From a virus (Duplodnaviria > Caudoviricetes), in IMG/VR virus record IMGVR_UViG_3300020045_012035, positions 1 to 46,685 of that record: a DNA stretch of 46,685 nt; one strand, written 5' to 3'. Shown here in pieces: positions 107 to 28,581 of this stretch (the stretch's first letter is position 1; every line of letters begins with the position of its first letter). The position numbers and the translations under genes are program-made. The notes under the pieces are model-generated. The model was not told the origin of the DNA, ran no database searches, and was given only the letters and a program-made list of their open reading frames with translations.

Positions 107-139
107 GTTGCATACAACATAGATAAGTTATATCTTTCC
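107..139 (+). promoter_or_regulatory. Bacteroidota-type promoter upstream of the ncRNA array
   Basis: GTTG(107-110)-N20-TATCTTTCC(131-139); same spacing as six other copies; resembles the Bacteroidota -33 TTG / -7 TAnnTTTG consensus. Confidence 0.65.
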
Positions 140-291: not shown

Positions 292-359
292 AAAGATAAC
301 AAGTAAGGCTATGAAGAAGCATCGAATGAGATTAATTCGAGTACAGCTACTTTATCTTT
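292..359 (+). ncRNA. Unassigned structured RNA candidate 2 (bulged hairpin)
   Basis: Nested pairings AAAGATAA/TTATCTTT, AAGTA/TACTT, GCT/AGC, TCGAAT/ATTCGA. Confidence 0.3.
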
Positions 360-367
360 TAAAATAA

Positions 368-629
368 ACTAACTGCTGTAGGTTAATTGATCAGTTACTG
401 GACCTCGGTTCGAAACCGAGCGCCTCCACAAAGAGTTCCGTGTAGAATTTTTGGTATGACTAGCCGAGATATAAATAGTTATTTTTAACGGGGGCGAATG
501 GCTTTGACAGTAACAATGAAAGATTAAATAGGCATTAGTCCACAATAACTGCAAAAGTTATAAACCTTTTTACTCCGCAAATGAGATTTGCAGCGTAAAA
601 CGAAACTTGGGATCTGCGAAAAAGATCCC
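368..629 (+). ncRNA. ssrA: Circularly permuted (two-piece) tmRNA: acceptor piece ~368-428, intervening ~429-489, coding piece ~490-629
   Basis: T-arm CTCGG-TTCGAAA-CCGAG and 3' acceptor strand CGCCTCC-A (421-428) lie upstream of the 5' strand GGGGGCG (490-496), giving G3.U70; P2 GTTACTG(394-400)/CAGTAAC(508-514); resume context AATAACT-GCA; tag frame 551-598 AKVINLFTPQMRFAA*; 3' hairpin GGGATCT/AGATCCC (609-629). Confidence 0.9.
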
Positions 630-634
630 TAAAT

Positions 635-708
635 GGGGATTTAGCTCATTTGGTAGAGCGCTTAGTCGAAAGGCTGAGAGGTGGTAGGTTCGAATCCTAC
701 AGCCCTCA
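635..708 (+). tRNA. tRNA-like gene with a non-canonical anticodon arm, identity undetermined
   Basis: GGGGATT-TA-GCTC-ATTTGGTA-GAGC-G-CTTAG-TCGAAAGG-CTGAG-AGGTG-GTAGG-TTCGAAT-CCTAC-AGCCCTC-A; good D and T arms; 8-nt anticodon loop lacking U33; A5.C68 mismatch; CCA not encoded. Confidence 0.75.
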
Positions 709-716
709 CTAAGAAC

Positions 717-937
717 CGTGCTGTACTAGTTTACAAGTCCTTAAAACCACTTATCAGAATTGGCGGTGATATGATAAGTAAATTTTGCTTGTCAGTAATC
801 TGAGTAACTGTCACACAACGTTTTATAGTTGCAATATACGCTTTTCGTCTATATAAAGCGTTACGATTACCGTACTCTTAAACAGAAAACGATGTAGCGT
901 AAGCAGAAGGTTTCGTTAAGGTTCTTTAAACGGCACG
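717..937 (+). ncRNA. Unassigned ~220-nt structured RNA candidate 3
   Basis: Nested helices CGTGCTGT/ACGGCACG, CCTTAA/TTAAGG, AACC/GGTT, TTTTGCTT/AAGCAGAA, CGTTTT/AAAACG; side hairpins ACTTATCA/TGATAAGT and ACGCTTT/AAAGCGT. Confidence 0.55.
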
Positions 938-1003
938 AGGATAAATGTGAGTCCTCATCTTTTAAATAATAGCCTACCACAGCAATTAATTTAAAAAAAA
1001 TCC

Positions 1004-1026
1004 AAGGGTGTTTTCACCCTTTTATT
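1004..1026 (+). terminator. Putative intrinsic terminator ending the RNA array
   Basis: AAGGGTG-TTTT-CACCCTT followed by a T-rich tail. Confidence 0.5.
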
Positions 1027-1121
1027 AAACATTTTGTTTTTTTGATTTGGGAAAGGTAAAGAGTAGTAGGTTTTTCTTCAATTTTCCTACTACTCAATAC
1101 TTTTAACTAAAATATGTAATT

Positions 1122-23542: not shown

Positions 23543-26206
23543 ATGTCAGATAATTTACAAAAAGGAGGAAAGGGAGCTGCTGTAGGGACTAGAAAAGAGT
23601 TTGGTGGTCGCGAGTATATTAAAACTGCAGACGGTTGGAAGTTTGTAGGAAAGGGTAAAGGAAAGGGAGCTCAAAAACATATAGATGCTCATAAAACTTC
23701 TACAGACGATAAGCAACCTAAATCTACACACTCTCCGGAAGAATTATCTACCCATGCCTCTAATACCTCAACAGAAGCTCTTACTGCAGTGGCTCATGAT
23801 AAAACTAAGCCAAAAGAACTTCAACAAGCTGCTCAACAAGAGTTAAGTCATAGAGATAAGGGTAGTAAAGAAATTGAACCTGAAAAAACTGAAAAGAAAG
23901 AAGAGCCTAAGAAGGAGGAAAAGAAGGAAGAAAAACCTAAACCTGCTGAAAAGAAAGAAGATAAAAAAGATGCTCACGAAAAGAGAGGATTTGATGAGTC
24001 TAAAGGAGATGAAGATGTGACTGGTAAGGGTGAGAAAATTCCAGCAGATTATGGTTTACCTAATGAAGAAAGCGCTGTAGAAGGAAAGATCTTAGCTCAA
24101 AAAGATGGAGCTGATAAATTGAGTGTTAAAGACGAAGGATTTAGTTTAGATCAACAAGAAGCTTTAACATCTGAAAGCGATAGCAATGAAGAAGATGATA
24201 TTAATCATAAATTTGAAGCGTTTGGTCGCTTCGCTGCTGGTGTAATTAAAGGACGTATGAAATCTTTAATAGCCTACGGCAGCGGAGGTGTGGGCAAAAC
24301 TTACACTGTAACCACGGAGTTAGAGAAGGCTGGAAAGAAAATATTTGATCCTGAAATTCACGATCCAGGTGAAAGTGGTTATGATTATGTAAAAATTACA
24401 GGGAAAGCTCTATCTTTAGATGCTGATATTATTACTCCTAATGGTATAGTAAAGAATAAAGATTTATCTGTAGGGATGGAAGTTAGTACTTTCGATGGTT
24501 CGTCTGCTAAGATAAATCAGATATTTGACCAAGAAGATGAGCAATTGTATGAGGTATTATTTAATGATGGCTCATCTGTTGAATGTACACTTAATCATTT
24601 ATGGCAAGTAAGGGATCGTATTTCTAGAAATAATAAAGTAGTAGATTTAAAATATATTTTAAATAAAAATGTAGTAAAGCGTTATCCTAATTATAACTTA
24701 TTTCGCTTTGCAATTCCATTAACAGCGCCTGTAGAATATAATAATCCCTCTATCGTTGAAATACATCCTTATTTATTAGGTTATTTAATAGGAGATGGTA
24801 ATATATGCGAAAGTGCAGGATCTATGAATATTGCAATAGGAGTAGAAGATCAAGAGTATGTTTTAAATAAAATCTCTTCATTATTACCGCTAAATCATAA
24901 ATTAGTACCAATATCGACTACAGAGAACTGGGATAAAATAAGCTTTAGAATACAAGGAGATAAAAATTTAAATATTAATTTGATTCGTAGAGCTATTATT
25001 TCATTAGATTTACAAAAAACTTGTTATAATAAATCTATTCCTGAGATATGTTTTACTATGTGTGTAGAAGATCGAATACATTTACTACAAGGATTATTTG
25101 ATTCAGACGGTACAGTAGAAAAGACAGGTAGTGCTCAGTTTTGCTCAGTTAGTAAACAATTAGCTATTGATGTGCGCAAATTAGCAAAATCTTTAGGAGC
25201 GTGGAGTTCTTTTAAAGAGAGAGTGGTACCTAGTAGTAATACGCTGAGATATGAAGTAGTAGTAAATCTACCTAAAACTATAAAATGCTGTTCTTTACCA
25301 CGTAAAGCTATACGCTTAGATAATAGAAGTAAAGATATTCCGGAATTAACAATAGTAGCAGTTAACCTTACTCGTATAGCTCCTAGTAGATGTATATCTA
25401 TAGATAGCGACGATCATTTATACTTAACGAATGATTTTATTGTCACACATAATTGTACTGCTGCAGCTGTATATCAAACTATGTATGAGCATAATGGTAA
25501 AATACTTCTCTTTGACGACTGCGATAGCGTACTTCAAGATGAAAATGCAATCAATCTATTCAAAGGAGCTCTTGATACATCAGGAGATGGAAGTATTAAC
25601 TGGGGAAGTGCTAAAAAACTAAAAGACAGCAACGGAGAGGAGATGCCTGGTAAATTTGCATTTAACGGAAGCGCAATGTTCGTTTCTAATCTTGATATTG
25701 GAAAAGATAAAAACGGAAAACAGTCAAATCCTCAATTACAACCAATTGTTTCTCGTGGATACGGTATTAATTTAACGATGGATAAAAAGAAAACAATGGA
25801 TCGCATTACTCATATTGCTACAAGTAAAGATGGCAAATTGACGAATCTTAAATTTCCAGGAACGCCAGATTATACTCACGAAGACATGAAAGCTGTATTA
25901 GAGTATATGGGTAAGAATAAAGATAAAGCGTCAGATTTAAATGTAAGAACAGTAGGAACTTTGCTTGCAATCAAAAAAGATGCAGATGAAGCAGGAGTGA
26001 ATTGGCAAGATGATGCAAAGTACGTTTATCTAAGAAAATCAAATACTCCTGATATCTATAATGGAGGATTATTCAACGCTAGAAAAGACGTTATACAAAA
26101 GTCTTTAGGAATTGATGAGCGAACTATTGGAGATAAGAAAATTGATTGGTGTACATTAAAGAAAGCATCTTTAAGAGGAAATGTAAAAAGTCTCGAATAC
26201 AGATAA
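23543..26206 (+). CDS. Putative head-cargo AAA+ ATPase with the shared N-terminal module and an intein
   Basis: Start reassigned to ATG 23543 (MSDNLQKGG); Walker A GSGGVGKT, Walker B LLFDDCD; K/E-rich linker. Confidence 0.8.
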   Translation: MSDNLQKGGKGAAVGTRKEFGGREYIKTADGWKFVGKGKGKGAQKHIDAHKTSTDDKQPKSTHSPEELSTHASNTSTEALTAVAHDKTKPKELQQAAQQELSHRDKGSKEIEPEKTEKKEEPKKEEKKEEKPKPAEKKEDKKDAHEKRGFDESKGDEDVTGKGEKIPADYGLPNEESAVEGKILAQKDGADKLSVKDEGFSLDQQEALTSESDSNEEDDINHKFEAFGRFAAGVIKGRMKSLIAYGSGGVGKTYTVTTELEKAGKKIFDPEIHDPGESGYDYVKITGKALSLDADIITPNGIVKNKDLSVGMEVSTFDGSSAKINQIFDQEDEQLYEVLFNDGSSVECTLNHLWQVRDRISRNNKVVDLKYILNKNVVKRYPNYNLFRFAIPLTAPVEYNNPSIVEIHPYLLGYLIGDGNICESAGSMNIAIGVEDQEYVLNKISSLLPLNHKLVPISTTENWDKISFRIQGDKNLNINLIRRAIISLDLQKTCYNKSIPEICFTMCVEDRIHLLQGLFDSDGTVEKTGSAQFCSVSKQLAIDVRKLAKSLGAWSSFKERVVPSSNTLRYEVVVNLPKTIKCCSLPRKAIRLDNRSKDIPELTIVAVNLTRIAPSRCISIDSDDHLYLTNDFIVTHNCTAAAVYQTMYEHNGKILLFDDCDSVLQDENAINLFKGALDTSGDGSINWGSAKKLKDSNGEEMPGKFAFNGSAMFVSNLDIGKDKNGKQSNPQLQPIVSRGYGINLTMDKKKTMDRITHIATSKDGKLTNLKFPGTPDYTHEDMKAVLEYMGKNKDKASDLNVRTVGTLLAIKKDADEAGVNWQDDAKYVYLRKSNTPDIYNGGLFNARKDVIQKSLGIDERTIGDKKIDWCTLKKASLRGNVKSLEYR
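24407..25453 (+). mobile_element. Class 3 intein with a LAGLIDADG homing endonuclease (349 aa)
   Basis: TGK|ALSLDADIITPNG ... IVTHN|C; block B CTLNHLW (W), block F SRCISI (C), block G THN (T) give the WCT signature; LLGYLIGDG and LQGLFDSDG. Confidence 0.92.
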
Positions 26207-26207
26207 A

Positions 26208-26260
26208 TATTTTACATACTTTTGTTGCATAATAATAAAATAGAAATTATCTTTACCTCA
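26208..26260 (+). promoter_or_regulatory. Repeated phage promoter inside the head module
   Basis: 51/53 identical to 13849-13901. Confidence 0.7.
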
Positions 26261-26277
26261 ATAAAAATAAATAAATC

Positions 26278-27456
26278 ATGTCAGATCAAAGTCAATATAA
26301 TTTCGACGAAGGAAGAAAAGCAATCATAACTGATAACTTACTAAAAAGCTATGGTATTGATCAATCAATCGAAAAATCTCAAGAAAATATCACTATTCCT
26401 AAAAAAGAATTTATCGATGAGCATGAGAAATTAGTTGACGTTCTTAACTCTCCTTCTCATACTGACGATAAAGAGGAGGCAGAAGATCAAGAAAAAGAAC
26501 TTAAACAAGTTACCAAATCTAATCAAGATACTCTTGAAAAAGGAGGTAAAAGAGCTGTTATTGGAGAAAAGCGTGAATTCAGCGGAAGAATGTATATCAA
26601 GACTGCAGACGGTTGGAAATTTTTTGGTAAAGGAACTGGAACTAAAGCTCAAGGTCATCATGAGTCTAGTAATTCTAAATCAGAAAGTAAGGTTGAAGAT
26701 AAAAACAACCCCTTTGGATTCGACAGTAAAGAGCAATATGATTCATATATACAGGGATTAGCTTCTCACTCTGTTAAGTTTGGACTTACAAAAGATGATT
26801 ATTGGACTTCTATTGACAATAAAGAAATTGCTGAAAAAATCAAAACACATTCAAGATCAGCAACGCCTACTAATGAGTTTAAGAAAATTCAAGCAGACGT
26901 AACTGCAGCTAAAAAGAAAATGAATGAAGTAAAGTCTGTAGCACAATCTGCAGGAATATCTCAAAAAGAATTTGATAAATTACATCCTGGAACCAAAAAA
27001 GAGCTAGAGAATAATACTAAGAAACAAGCTCCAGGACATATTGATAGTGTTAAGTATCAAGAAGAGGTTAGAGAAAAACATACTCCTAAAGAAGATAAGA
27101 AACAATCTTTTTCAGATTTGGAGAATGTTAAAGAAGATTTGAAAGATAAGTTTAAAGGATATAAATTCAAAGAAAGCGATAATACTTACGGCGGTAAAAC
27201 TATATCTTTTTCTAAAAACGATAGAAATGAAGATTCCTCATTTGATATTCAACAAAAAACTGAAAAAGGATTCTTCGTTAATATGATTACTAAGAAAGTA
27301 GTTTCTTCAACTAGTTTAGCTGATCCGTCTAAAAACTACCAAACTACATCAGCTCGAAGCGTAAGACATAAAACTATCAAAACATCCAATCACGTTGATA
27401 CTATGAAAGATGTTTATAAGCTTATCGATAGACATTTGAGTAAAATCAATAAATAA
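26278..27456 (+). CDS. Putative head-cargo protein with the shared 39-aa module
   Basis: Acidic propeptide-like N-terminus with LLKS/IEKS/VTKS, then LEK|GGKRAVIGEKREFSGRMYIKTADGWKFFGKG; basic C-terminus. Confidence 0.7.
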   Translation: MSDQSQYNFDEGRKAIITDNLLKSYGIDQSIEKSQENITIPKKEFIDEHEKLVDVLNSPSHTDDKEEAEDQEKELKQVTKSNQDTLEKGGKRAVIGEKREFSGRMYIKTADGWKFFGKGTGTKAQGHHESSNSKSESKVEDKNNPFGFDSKEQYDSYIQGLASHSVKFGLTKDDYWTSIDNKEIAEKIKTHSRSATPTNEFKKIQADVTAAKKKMNEVKSVAQSAGISQKEFDKLHPGTKKELENNTKKQAPGHIDSVKYQEEVREKHTPKEDKKQSFSDLENVKEDLKDKFKGYKFKESDNTYGGKTISFSKNDRNEDSSFDIQQKTEKGFFVNMITKKVVSSTSLADPSKNYQTTSARSVRHKTIKTSNHVDTMKDVYKLIDRHLSKINK

Positions 27457-27722
27457 TGTGCGATAAAGGAGAAATAGGAAACTTCTCTTACGAGAAGCAG
27501 AAAGATGGAACTTTTCTTTATAAAGCTAAAGAAAACACTCTATCTTCAAAAAAAGTGATTAAAAAAGCTCAATATAAGGAAAAACCTCAATATAAAGCTT
27601 TAGAACAGATCGAAAACAAATCTATAGCTAGATTTCAGAATGATTTAAAAACGACAGTAAAAAACGTAGTACAACTTCTAAATACAATATCAAATGAGCG
27701 GATTCAAACATCAAGAAAATAA
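27456..27722 (+). CDS. Small basic hypothetical protein in the head module
   Basis: 88-aa ORF, TAATG-coupled. Confidence 0.55.
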   Translation: MCDKGEIGNFSYEKQKDGTFLYKAKENTLSSKKVIKKAQYKEKPQYKALEQIENKSIARFQNDLKTTVKNVVQLLNTISNERIQTSRK

Positions 27723-28581
27723 AAGAGAGATTTCAAACAATATCGCATCGCTTTACGGAACTGAGCATCCTACAGAAGCTATTCAAAAAAGTGAGCAACA
27801 AAACCTATCTCCTTTTGAACATAGAGAGTTAGTAAAATCTCAGATAGCTGGAAGTTTCAATGAAAATACTCCTAGTTTATCTGACGAAGAATTAGAGAAA
27901 AGTGCTGAGGACACTCTTGAAAAAGGAGGAAAACGTGCTGTTATTGGAGAAAGAAGACAATTTGGAGGAAGAGAATATATTAAAACCAAAGATGGCTGGA
28001 AATTTCATGGCAAAGGAAGTGGAGTAAAAGCTACAAGTCATCGTGAAGGAGCTTTAGATCATCATGTAGAAACAGGTAAAGGTGCTGGAGAAAAGAAAGA
28101 AGAATCAGAGCATTCTAAATTATCTGATGCTGATTTAGAGCGTAGAAAAGAAGTAGCTACTAACTTAGGGAGTGCAGCTTTAAAAACTGGCAAACCTGAG
28201 GATGTAACTAAATTAATGCAAGAAGTGCACGCTATCGAAACTGAACAAAAGAAAAGAGCAGAAAAAGAAGTTGGTAAAGTAGGAAAGCCTGACTCAATCA
28301 CTTTAGATAGAGATCATAAAGAAAAACCTACATCTAAACACATTGGAGATATGAGTGCTACAGATATGAAAGCTGCAGCAGACAAATTAGGTATCGACGT
28401 AAAAGGAAAATCAGTAAAGCAAGTACGCGAAGCTCTAACAGGAGCTAATATCGATAAGCAATTAGCTGATTTCAAAGCTAAGAAAGGAGATAATAAAGAA
28501 CCAACGCACGATCCGGAGACAGGAAGAGAATTGACTTCGTTAGAAAGAGCAGCTTTAAAAGCTCAAAGTGAGGGAAAGTAG
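27694..28581 (+). CDS. Putative head-cargo protein with the shared 39-aa module (short form)
   Basis: IQKS/LVKS/LEKS, then LEK|GGKRAVIGERRQFGGREYIKTKDGWKFHGKG. Confidence 0.7.
   Translation: MSGFKHQENKREISNNIASLYGTEHPTEAIQKSEQQNLSPFEHRELVKSQIAGSFNENTPSLSDEELEKSAEDTLEKGGKRAVIGERRQFGGREYIKTKDGWKFHGKGSGVKATSHREGALDHHVETGKGAGEKKEESEHSKLSDADLERRKEVATNLGSAALKTGKPEDVTKLMQEVHAIETEQKKRAEKEVGKVGKPDSITLDRDHKEKPTSKHIGDMSATDMKAAADKLGIDVKGKSVKQVREALTGANIDKQLADFKAKKGDNKEPTHDPETGRELTSLERAALKAQSEGK

What the first reader, a model, noticed from the sequence alone, without database searches (positions are those of the whole stretch)
368..629. Minimal circularly permuted two-piece tmRNA in a phage
Seen: the 3' tRNA-like half (GGAC, T-arm, CGCCTCC-A) precedes the 5' half (GGGGGCG...TTTGAC) by a 61-nt spacer. 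The halves pair through the acceptor stem (G3.U70), GTTACTG/CAGTAAC, TTAAT/ATTAA, TGC/GCA and ACTAA/TTAGT. The tag is (A)AKVINLFTPQMRFAA. Only about 11 nt separate helix 2 from the resume codon and one hairpin follows the tag, leaving no room for pk1-pk4; total length is about 200 nt. Known: permuted tmRNAs occur in Alphaproteobacteria, some Betaproteobacteria and some cyanobacteria; to my knowledge Bacteroidota use one-piece genes. Inference: an independently permuted, stripped-down phage tmRNA that may back up or compete with host trans-translation. No smpB is present in this window.
Basis: partly seen in the sequence, partly recalled or inferred. Interest (0 to 1): 0.88.

Follow-up and report, generated by a model that had tools for sequence, protein, structure and literature searches.

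The report
Compact two-piece tmRNA of Bacteroidota phages
This phage, a relative of a Chryseobacterium phage, carries a real back-to-front gene for tmRNA (the RNA that frees stalled ribosomes) with no room for the usual first pseudoknot; it is predicted to be cut into two pieces that likely work with the host's proteins, and it belongs to a widespread phage group that public records label but that no paper I could search describes.

Summary
Confirmed. ARAGORN and Rfam RF04321 (63 bits, cut-off 47) call a circularly permuted tmRNA at 368-629. The helices, G3.U70, 61-nt spacer, tag and 11-nt linker are as described. The phage is closest to Chryseobacterium phage MA9V-3 (capsid 81%), which has the same gene form at the same place. 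The gene belongs to a large group (77 distinct copies parsed), including crAss-like phages; the pattern hit 1 of 185,579 prokaryote genomes, on a phage-like contig. Permutation and loss of pseudoknot 1 go together (40 permuted, 0 one-piece, 17 unresolved). Sequence signatures favour origin from a flavobacterial-type one-piece tmRNA, but a shared origin with other permuted genes is not rejected (p-AU 0.13), and this copy alone scores closer to them. One correction: the hairpin after the tag likely forms a small covarying pseudoknot, so the group may not be pseudoknot-free. Permuted phage tmRNAs are published, crAss copies are listed as 'Permuted' in a supplementary table, and this scan found the group at least nine times on other DNA. 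Processing and tagging are untested. New variant of a known kind.

The parts
353..360 (+). Promoter-like site, one mismatch from the Bacteroidota -7 element TAnnTTTG (motif recalled); predicted start near 365-368
   Evidence: Sequence. Exact motif 41-49 nt before GGAC in 9 of 51 family members vs shuffle mean 0.7, max 4. Not enriched window-wide: 58 vs 62.8 expected.
368..400 (+). Acceptor piece: 3' strand of helix 2, pairs with 508-539
   Evidence: Fold; duplex -20.5 kcal/mol, better than with all 50 non-cognate partners.
400..428 (+). Acceptor piece: GGAC, T-arm 404-420, acceptor 3' strand 421-427, discriminator A428; CCA not encoded
   Evidence: T and acceptor stems 100% paired in 26 of 26 aligned copies.
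429..489 (+). 61-nt intervening sequence closing the acceptor stem; predicted to be removed
   Evidence: similar in L109, L112, L099, L115.
490..508 (+). Coding piece: 5' acceptor strand (G492 = G3) and D-loop
   Evidence: U at position 70 in 77 of 77 distinct copies where the pattern allowed C or U.
508..539 (+). Coding piece: 5' strand of helix 2
540..550 (+). 11-nt unpaired linker with resume context, where pseudoknot 1 normally lies
   Evidence: family median 11 nt, range 0-15, n = 51.
551..598 (+). Tag frame (A)AKVINLFTPQMRFAA and stop; its 3' part folds into a helix-5-like hairpin (about 566-602)
601..629 (+). Hairpin 609-615/623-629; predicted small pseudoknot with 601-602 pairing to 617-618
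   Evidence: hairpin; covariation in the family; only 2 pairs plus A.G in this copy.
635..709 (+). tRNA-like element with a 7-bp stem and GAAA tetraloop in place of the anticodon arm; predicted processing signal for the 3' end of the coding piece
   Evidence: Rfam tRNA 44.5 bits, ARAGORN tRNA-???, fold; tRNA-Val at the same offset in L112, anticodon-defective elements in L207 and L210.

Best explanation
The locus is a circularly permuted tmRNA gene without pseudoknot 1 in a phage that likely infects a Bacteroidota host; its transcript is predicted to be cut into two paired pieces that likely rescue stalled ribosomes and tag their peptides using host proteins. Shown: gene order, pairing and covariation, alanine identity pair, open tag frame, no room for pk1, no phage SmpB found. 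Inferred, by analogy with known two-piece tmRNA: host polymerase starts near 368; RNase P cuts before G490, a 3' nuclease trims after A428 and CCA is added; RNase P cleavage at the tRNA-like element (635) likely frees the 3' end of the coding piece. The pieces (about 64 and 140 nt) would stay paired through the acceptor stem and helix 2, be alanylated, bind host SmpB and EF-Tu, and resume at 551, adding a tag ending in AA for host proteases. With the ring opened, an 11-nt linker would replace pk1, and a small 3' pseudoknot likely caps the coding piece. The likely benefit is extra rescue capacity during infection. The group most likely arose by its own permutation of a Bacteroidota-type one-piece gene and has moved between unrelated phages.
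For: (identity, fold); acceptor stem 100% paired in 26 of 26, compensatory changes in 3 of 7 pairs; 73 two-sided changes vs 27.2 shuffled (0 of 500); cognate helix-2 duplex mean -16.6 vs non-cognate -10.1 (sd 3.2), top 10% in 43 of 51; tags end AA, VA, TA or AS in 51 of 51. MA9V-3 has the same form upstream of its terminase. (118 loci, 95 distinct, search blind to gene order): short-linker genes 40 permuted, 0 one-piece, 17 unresolved; pk1-bearing genes 24 one-piece, 0 permuted, 14 unresolved; 30 one-piece, 0 permuted, 17 unresolved of 47; in a search blind to linker length, TTGAC at the end of the 5' half in 13 of 13 short-linker genes vs 2 of 85 pk1-type permuted phage genes; that 5'-half signature is in 33 of 61 genomes of the order of an Aequorivita MAG (control 0); 22 of 24 loci there are one-piece with Gly resume; all 22 family rows group with 9 cellular and 10 phage one-piece genes (SH-aLRT 86); no SmpB in 0 of 6 records, two complete. 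(passages): pk1 can be replaced by a hairpin in E. coli.
Against: No expression, processing or tagging data. One clade of all permuted genes is not rejected (lnL 32 lower, p-AU 0.134); the tree has 78 columns and one starred branch. This copy scores higher on the pk1-type permuted profile (-99.6) than on the Bacteroidia profile (-122.0), and only 29 of 51 family rows prefer the latter; it has an Ala resume codon and a partial beta_tmRNA match (39.5 bits, cut-off 84). L227 is an alpha-type permuted phage gene also lacking pk1, so the loss is not unique. Published pk1 substitutes were stable hairpins, some with low activity; here there is no hairpin. 17 short-linker genes showed no acceptor half within 217-700 nt. 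The host is inferred from a relative.
Confidence: 0.68

Rival explanations
1. Same function, but the gene descends from an already permuted proteobacterial or cyanobacterial (phage) tmRNA that moved into Bacteroidota phages, lost pk1 and drifted toward host-like sequence.
For: p-AU 0.134; this copy's profile score favours pk1-type permuted genes; partial beta_tmRNA match including the intervening sequence; L227 shows pk1 loss in an alpha-type gene; the gene is evidently swapped between phages.
Against: Signature counts 13 of 13 vs 2 of 85; tree; no permuted pk1-bearing gene with the Bacteroidota signature; sister phages carry one-piece Bacteroidota-type genes.
Confidence: 0.2
2. The RNA is a competitor: it binds SmpB and EF-Tu, or tags with a peptide that host proteases handle differently, and so dampens or redirects host trans-translation.
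For: A TLD-only molecule like that of phage DS6A inhibits host tmRNA (PMC4131195 passage). Phage tags are longer (mode 15 aa) and unlike host GENNYALAA. No pk1 or substitute hairpin.
Against: Resume context, open frame and hydrophobic AA-type C-terminus are kept in 51 of 51 divergent copies; a decoy would not need them.
Confidence: 0.15
3. This copy is a decaying remnant or a piece left by integration at a host tmRNA gene.
For: Some family phages carry integrases. The neighbouring tRNA-like element is anticodon-less.
Against: Both halves pair fully, with best-of-51 cognate duplex; order is permuted while sampled hosts are one-piece; best identity to any of 74 relatives is 66% with the structure kept.
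Confidence: 0.05

Closest known systems
Permuted (two-piece) tmRNA, Rfam RF04321 (merging alpha RF01849, beta RF01850, cyano RF01851; PMC11915505)
   Same: Gene order, intervening sequence, tRNA-like domain, G3.U70, resume context, tag ending AA; over cut-off.
   Different: No pk1: 42 nt from the D-loop GAC to the resume codon vs median 64, minimum 54, in 85 pk1-type permuted phage genes. No subtype model over cut-off. A review describes the coding piece as typically having PK1 and PK2 (PMC3985003 passage). Host phylum uses one-piece genes.
tmRNAs annotated in Chryseobacterium phage MA9V-3 (PV245944) and crAss-like Suoliviridae (cr114_1, cr10_1, cr50_1, cr272_1)
   Same: Same permuted, short-linker architecture; same position in MA9V-3. 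crAss copies listed as 'Permuted' in Table S1 of PMC9004378.
   Different: 55% and 50% identity to the MA9V-3 and cr114_1 genes; crAss spacers are longer and may hold a tRNA or an endonuclease gene. The MA9V-3 paper never uses 'permuted'.
Two-piece tmRNAs of marine phages Melnitz and Mosig (PMC9004378)
   Same: Phage-encoded, permuted, tag-bearing.
   Different: Alpha-type (Mosig RF01849 67.6 bits), 58-nt D-loop-to-resume distance with room for pk1, different tag type.
One-piece tmRNAs of Flavobacteriales and their phages (Cellulophaga Calle_1, phi14:2; L004, L567-L569)
   Same: 19-nt 5' half ending TTGAC, similar first helix-2 pairs; L004 tag GKQINFRPSFSPMRFAA resembles this tag.
   Different: One piece, about 315-470 nt, pk1 present.

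Membership tests
tmRNA | tRNA-like domain with 7-bp acceptor stem, G3.U70, discriminator A, T-arm, no anticodon arm | tested here: met
tmRNA | Tag reading frame with resume context and stop | tested here: met
   551-598; conserved across family.
tmRNA | Alanylation, SmpB binding and peptide tagging | not testable with these tools
   No data.
Permuted tmRNA (RF04321) | 3' tRNA-like half before 5' half, model score over gathering cut-off | tested here: met
   63 bits vs 47.
Permuted tmRNA (RF04321) | Helix 2 formed between the two pieces | tested here: met
Permuted tmRNA (RF04321) | Processing into two mature pieces | not testable with these tools
   No RNA run covers the gene.
Alpha, beta or cyano subtype (RF01849, RF01850, RF01851) | Subtype model over its cut-off | tested here: not met
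   None at gathering level; best is beta, 39.5 vs 84 bits, positions 55-185 of 331.
Alpha, beta or cyano subtype (RF01849, RF01850, RF01851) | Pseudoknot 1 between helix 2 and the resume codon | tested here: not met
   11-nt linker. A crude finder saw pk1 in 0 of 51 family rows but only 16 of 85 controls, so length is the real evidence.
Short-linker permuted group of Bacteroidota phages (unnamed) | 19-nt 5' half ending TTGAC, 35-47 nt to resume codon, tag of K/N-V-I type | tested here: met
Short-linker permuted group of Bacteroidota phages (unnamed) | Small 3' pseudoknot with a 3-bp first stem | tested here: inconclusive
   Only 2 pairs plus A.G here and in five close copies; 3 pairs in 19 of 28 motif hairpins.
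Short-linker permuted group of Bacteroidota phages (unnamed) | Single origin of the group | tested here: inconclusive
   Not rejected (p-AU 0.436) and not recovered in the free tree.

The most novel reading that the evidence does not exclude
A further independent circular permutation of a tag-coding tmRNA, beyond the alpha, beta and cyano lineages, that arose from a Bacteroidota one-piece gene, lives essentially only in phages, lost pseudoknot 1 together with the permutation, gained a small 3' pseudoknot of its own, and still tags: a natural ~200-nt working tmRNA showing that pk1 is dispensable once the ring is opened.
Probability: 0.5. Interest if true: 0.7.

Novelty: new variant of a known kind. 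Interest (0 to 1): 0.52.

Why it matters
Whether pseudoknot 1 is needed to load the tag frame is still debated: a 2026 simulation preprint assigns it an anchoring role, and E. coli substitutes were stable hairpins. A large natural group with only an 11-nt linker makes this directly testable and offers a very small template for engineered tagging. If the origin is independent, tmRNA permutation recurred in phages whose sampled hosts use one-piece genes. The cultured phage MA9V-3 allows the first direct test of why phages carry tmRNA. The general kind is published and the group is already labelled in records, which limits the surprise.

Tried and rejected
BLASTN of the gene against cultured phages found only the downstream tRNA-like element among the 40 rows shown of 211. 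RNA runs: no RNA holder listed; the one small-share run gave three short contigs, one matching 544-601 with a different upstream part, and its RNA status is a guess, so it is not used. The 'Permuted' call for Cellulophaga phi4:1 in the published table was not supported by RF04321. Taxonomic Table S2 of PMC11915505 is not in the held supplement; four accession stems of crAss and MA9V-3 records had no hit in the held, cut part, so whether these genes are among its 79 phage entries is open. Sharkady and Williams 2004 was not held; Mao 2009 and Gaudin 2002 were not read. The endolysin search and cluster look-up gave no host name. The crude pk1 finder was insensitive. A re-test of the profile scores with taxonomically chosen Flavobacteriales genes could not be run, so the profile result rests on a set of 12 that I picked by sequence, six of which later proved to lie in that order. 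One search was a faulty alignment and is not used. Rejected readings: chance (E 6e-10), ordinary tRNA, integration scar.

Full report
1. The observation. It holds. ARAGORN reports a permuted tmRNA with tag AKVINLFTPQMRFAA and Rfam RF04321 matches 382-598 at 63 bits against a cut-off of 47, E 6e-10. The sequence shows the 3' tRNA-like half at 400-428, a 61-nt intervening sequence, the 5' half from 490, the G492.U425 alanine pair, resume codon 551 and stop 596-598. No alpha, beta or cyano subtype model reaches its cut-off; beta gives a partial 39.5 bits against 84.

2. The phage. The record is a 46,685-nt fragment, about 46% complete, with terminase, portal, capsid and tail sheath. The closest cultured phage is Chryseobacterium phage MA9V-3: capsid 81%, terminase 78%. 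MA9V-3 has a permuted tmRNA of the same build upstream of its terminase; its paper lists it as tmRNA and never uses 'permuted' (PMC13120357, passages). SmpB was found in 0 of 6 records, two of them complete. A Bacteroidota host is inferred from this relative.

3. The group. A pattern for permuted order plus short linker found 26 loci in IMG/VR (ARAGORN called 22 of 26; 8 of 8 tested pass RF04321), 74 in metagenomes and 1 in 185,579 GTDB genomes, on a 5.8-kb contig of an Aequorivita MAG with capsid-like and head protease genes. The pattern is narrow (spacer 40-70 nt), so this is not proof of absence from cells. RF04321 passed in 1 of 151 genomes of that phylum, the same contig; RF00023 passed in 56 of 61. 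crAss-like Suoliviridae found by BLAST carry the same form. Of 107 loci, 104 parsed into 77 distinct genes, all with U70. I dropped 2 lacking flank or tag and 10 with doubtful resume codon or short helix 2, and collapsed the rest to 51. In these the cognate helix-2 duplex averaged -16.6 vs -10.1 kcal/mol for non-cognate pairs, was in the top 10% in 43 of 51 and best of all in 15 of 51; the free linker had median 11 nt; CCA was encoded in 5 of 51; the Bacteroidota promoter motif (recalled) sat 41-49 nt before GGAC in 9 of 51 vs 0.7 in shuffles; 12 of 51 follow a T-loop. On 26 aligned copies the acceptor and T stems were 100% paired, the first helix-2 segment 61.5%, with 73 two-sided changes vs 27.2 shuffled (the pattern fixed some columns). 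The flanking proteins belong to varied phages. This gene is at most 66% identical to any of 74 relatives, and MA9V-3's ranks 48th at 55%, while three phages with 71-73% capsid identity and one with 53% terminase identity carry one-piece genes. The gene is therefore exchanged among phages.

4. Loss of pseudoknot 1 goes with permutation. A scan blind to linker length (8 of 64 parts of IMG/VR) gave 107 distinct genes with two size classes: after dropping 7 with a wrong or missing resume call and 1 with short flank, 13 short ones of this type, 1 short alpha-type gene (L227), and 85 with 54-89 nt. A scan blind to gene order (48 of 64 parts; 118 loci, 95 distinct) gave 40 permuted, 0 one-piece and 17 unresolved among short-linker genes, and 24 one-piece, 0 permuted, 14 unresolved among pk1-bearing ones; a second scan gave 30, 0 and 17 of 47. 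The 17 unresolved short genes had no acceptor half within the flank held; long spacers, introns and T-loop variants in named crAss phages show how that can arise, but it is not shown for these 17.

5. A correction: probably not pseudoknot-free. The first loop bases of the hairpin after the tag pair with a 3-mer just upstream in 35 of 72 hairpins (85 sequences), vs 16.6 with swapped partners (0 of 1000 as high) and 19 of 72 using the other end of the loop. Restricting to hairpins with the loop motif, 19 of 28 have the 3-bp stem in four pair types (CGT/ACG, CGC/GCG, AGT/ACT, AGC/GCT); swapped maximum 13 in 2000; the motif is in 2 of 55 pk1-type genes. The geometry fits a compact H-type pseudoknot. 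Limits: the motif was defined after seeing the data, relatedness is not controlled, 57 of 85 sequences lack the motif hairpin as defined, and this copy has only two pairs plus A.G.

6. Origin. For: TTGAC ends the 5' half in 13 of 13 unbiased short genes vs 2 of 85 pk1-type genes, and the three bases before GGAC match the Bacteroidia type in 12 of 13 vs 8 of 85. The same 5'-half signature is in 33 of 61 genomes of the Aequorivita MAG's order (one is the phage-like contig; control 0), whose tmRNAs are one-piece with a Gly resume codon in 22 of 24 loci. A tree of 78 rows put all 22 family rows with 9 cellular and 10 phage one-piece genes and 2 of 24 pk1-type genes (SH-aLRT 86). Against: only 78 columns; one clade of all permuted genes is not rejected (p-AU 0.134); this copy scores better on the pk1-type profile (-99.6 vs -122.0) and 29 of 51 family rows prefer the Bacteroidia profile (that set of 12 was picked by sequence, and the size-matched figure for the 13 unbiased genes was 75%). 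The pk1-type comparators are phage genes, not cellular alpha, beta or cyano genes. I put independent origin at about 65-70%.

7. Mechanism. By analogy with two-piece tmRNA (reviews PMC3985003 and PMC3968760, passages) the precursor would be cut by RNase P and a 3' nuclease, receive CCA and alanine, and act with host SmpB and EF-Tu. The tRNA-like element at 635, whose anticodon arm is a 7-bp stem with a GAAA tetraloop, lies where L112 has a tRNA-Val and L207 and L210 have anticodon-defective elements; it likely marks the 3' end of the coding piece. Conserved resume context and AA-type tag ends argue for tagging rather than decoy action. None of these steps is shown. Proposed roles for phage tmRNAs in print are general (PMC9004378, PMC7162821, passages).

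8. What is known. Permuted tmRNA is one of three recognised forms, with 11,946 sequences and 79 phage entries in the current database (PMC11915505, parts 1-4 of 5 read, plus two supplement parts and two supplement searches). PMC9004378 reports 53 two-piece genes among 133 phage tmRNAs and frames them as alpha, gamma or cyano; its Table S1 (part 2 read, rest searched) lists 13 of 14 crAssphages as 'Permuted'. Older database papers list only other phages (PMC4131195, PMC4383926, passages); PMC8012679 had nothing relevant (passages). Nine literature searches (listings only, except the papers named) found no text describing a pk1-less or Bacteroidota-phage permuted lineage; subscription papers and the database's taxonomic table could not be seen. 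This scan has noted the group at least nine times on other genomes; those notes are not independent support.

9. Verdict. Real, conserved and probably functional; a member of the permuted tmRNA family but of none of its three described subtypes. New variant of a known kind, interest 0.52.

Noticed in passing
L565 4890-6110 (crAssphage cr6_1) and L566 5090-6110 (cr4_1): Permuted tmRNA genes whose T-loop is interrupted by a group I intron (RF00028 96.7 and 74.9 bits) holding an opposite-strand ORF (annotated endonuclease in cr6_1). In cr4_1 the intron follows the last T-loop base and ends in G. A permuted-plus-intron form is not among the forms tabulated in PMC11915505; ARAGORN misses both.
   Followed up: partly
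L212 300-1070 (crAssphage cr56_1): Permuted tmRNA with a variant T-loop and a roughly 600-nt intervening sequence holding an opposite-strand endonuclease gene.
   Followed up: partly
L205 745-816 (crAssphage cr114_1): A tRNA (63 bits) lies inside the intervening sequence of the permuted tmRNA.
   Followed up: no
window 635-709: tRNA-like element with intact D- and T-arms but a GAAA-capped 7-bp stem in place of the anticodon arm; anticodon-defective tRNA-like elements also flank tmRNA genes in L207, L210, L110, L112 and L569.
   Followed up: partly
window 131-138, 158-170, 178-270, 921-931: A second promoter-like site, two boxA-like motifs (motif recalled; similar ones precede tmRNA genes in L004, L569, L140, L167, L169), and a multi-stem fold at 178-270 (z -2.4) with no Rfam match.
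   Followed up: no
window 710-1120: About 400 nt without an ORF of 60 aa; folds no better than shuffles in 712-990, but a contig of run X1 matches 729-871 with one difference.
   Followed up: partly
L227 (IMG/VR): Alpha-type permuted phage tmRNA with only 39 nt to the resume codon: an apparently separate loss of pseudoknot 1.
   Followed up: partly
L131, L133, L135, L137, L147, L153, L175, L176, L458, L459, L500: Subgroup with very long tags (about 35-37 aa) and, in L458, L459 and L500, a spacer of only about 17 nt.
   Followed up: no
window 23543-26206: 887-aa ORF whose middle (about 285-640) matches inserts of terminase and helicase-loader families and looks like an intein (motif recalled) within a phrog_1250 protein.
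   Followed up: no
window 23543-28581: Three neighbouring ORFs share a KGG-x-A-x-x-G-x-R-x-x-F-x-GR-x-YIKT-x-DGW motif.
   Followed up: no
L001 26938-27777 (MA9V-3): An ORF annotated ClpX lies about 4 kb from the tmRNA gene; not checked whether it is a real unfoldase.
   Followed up: no
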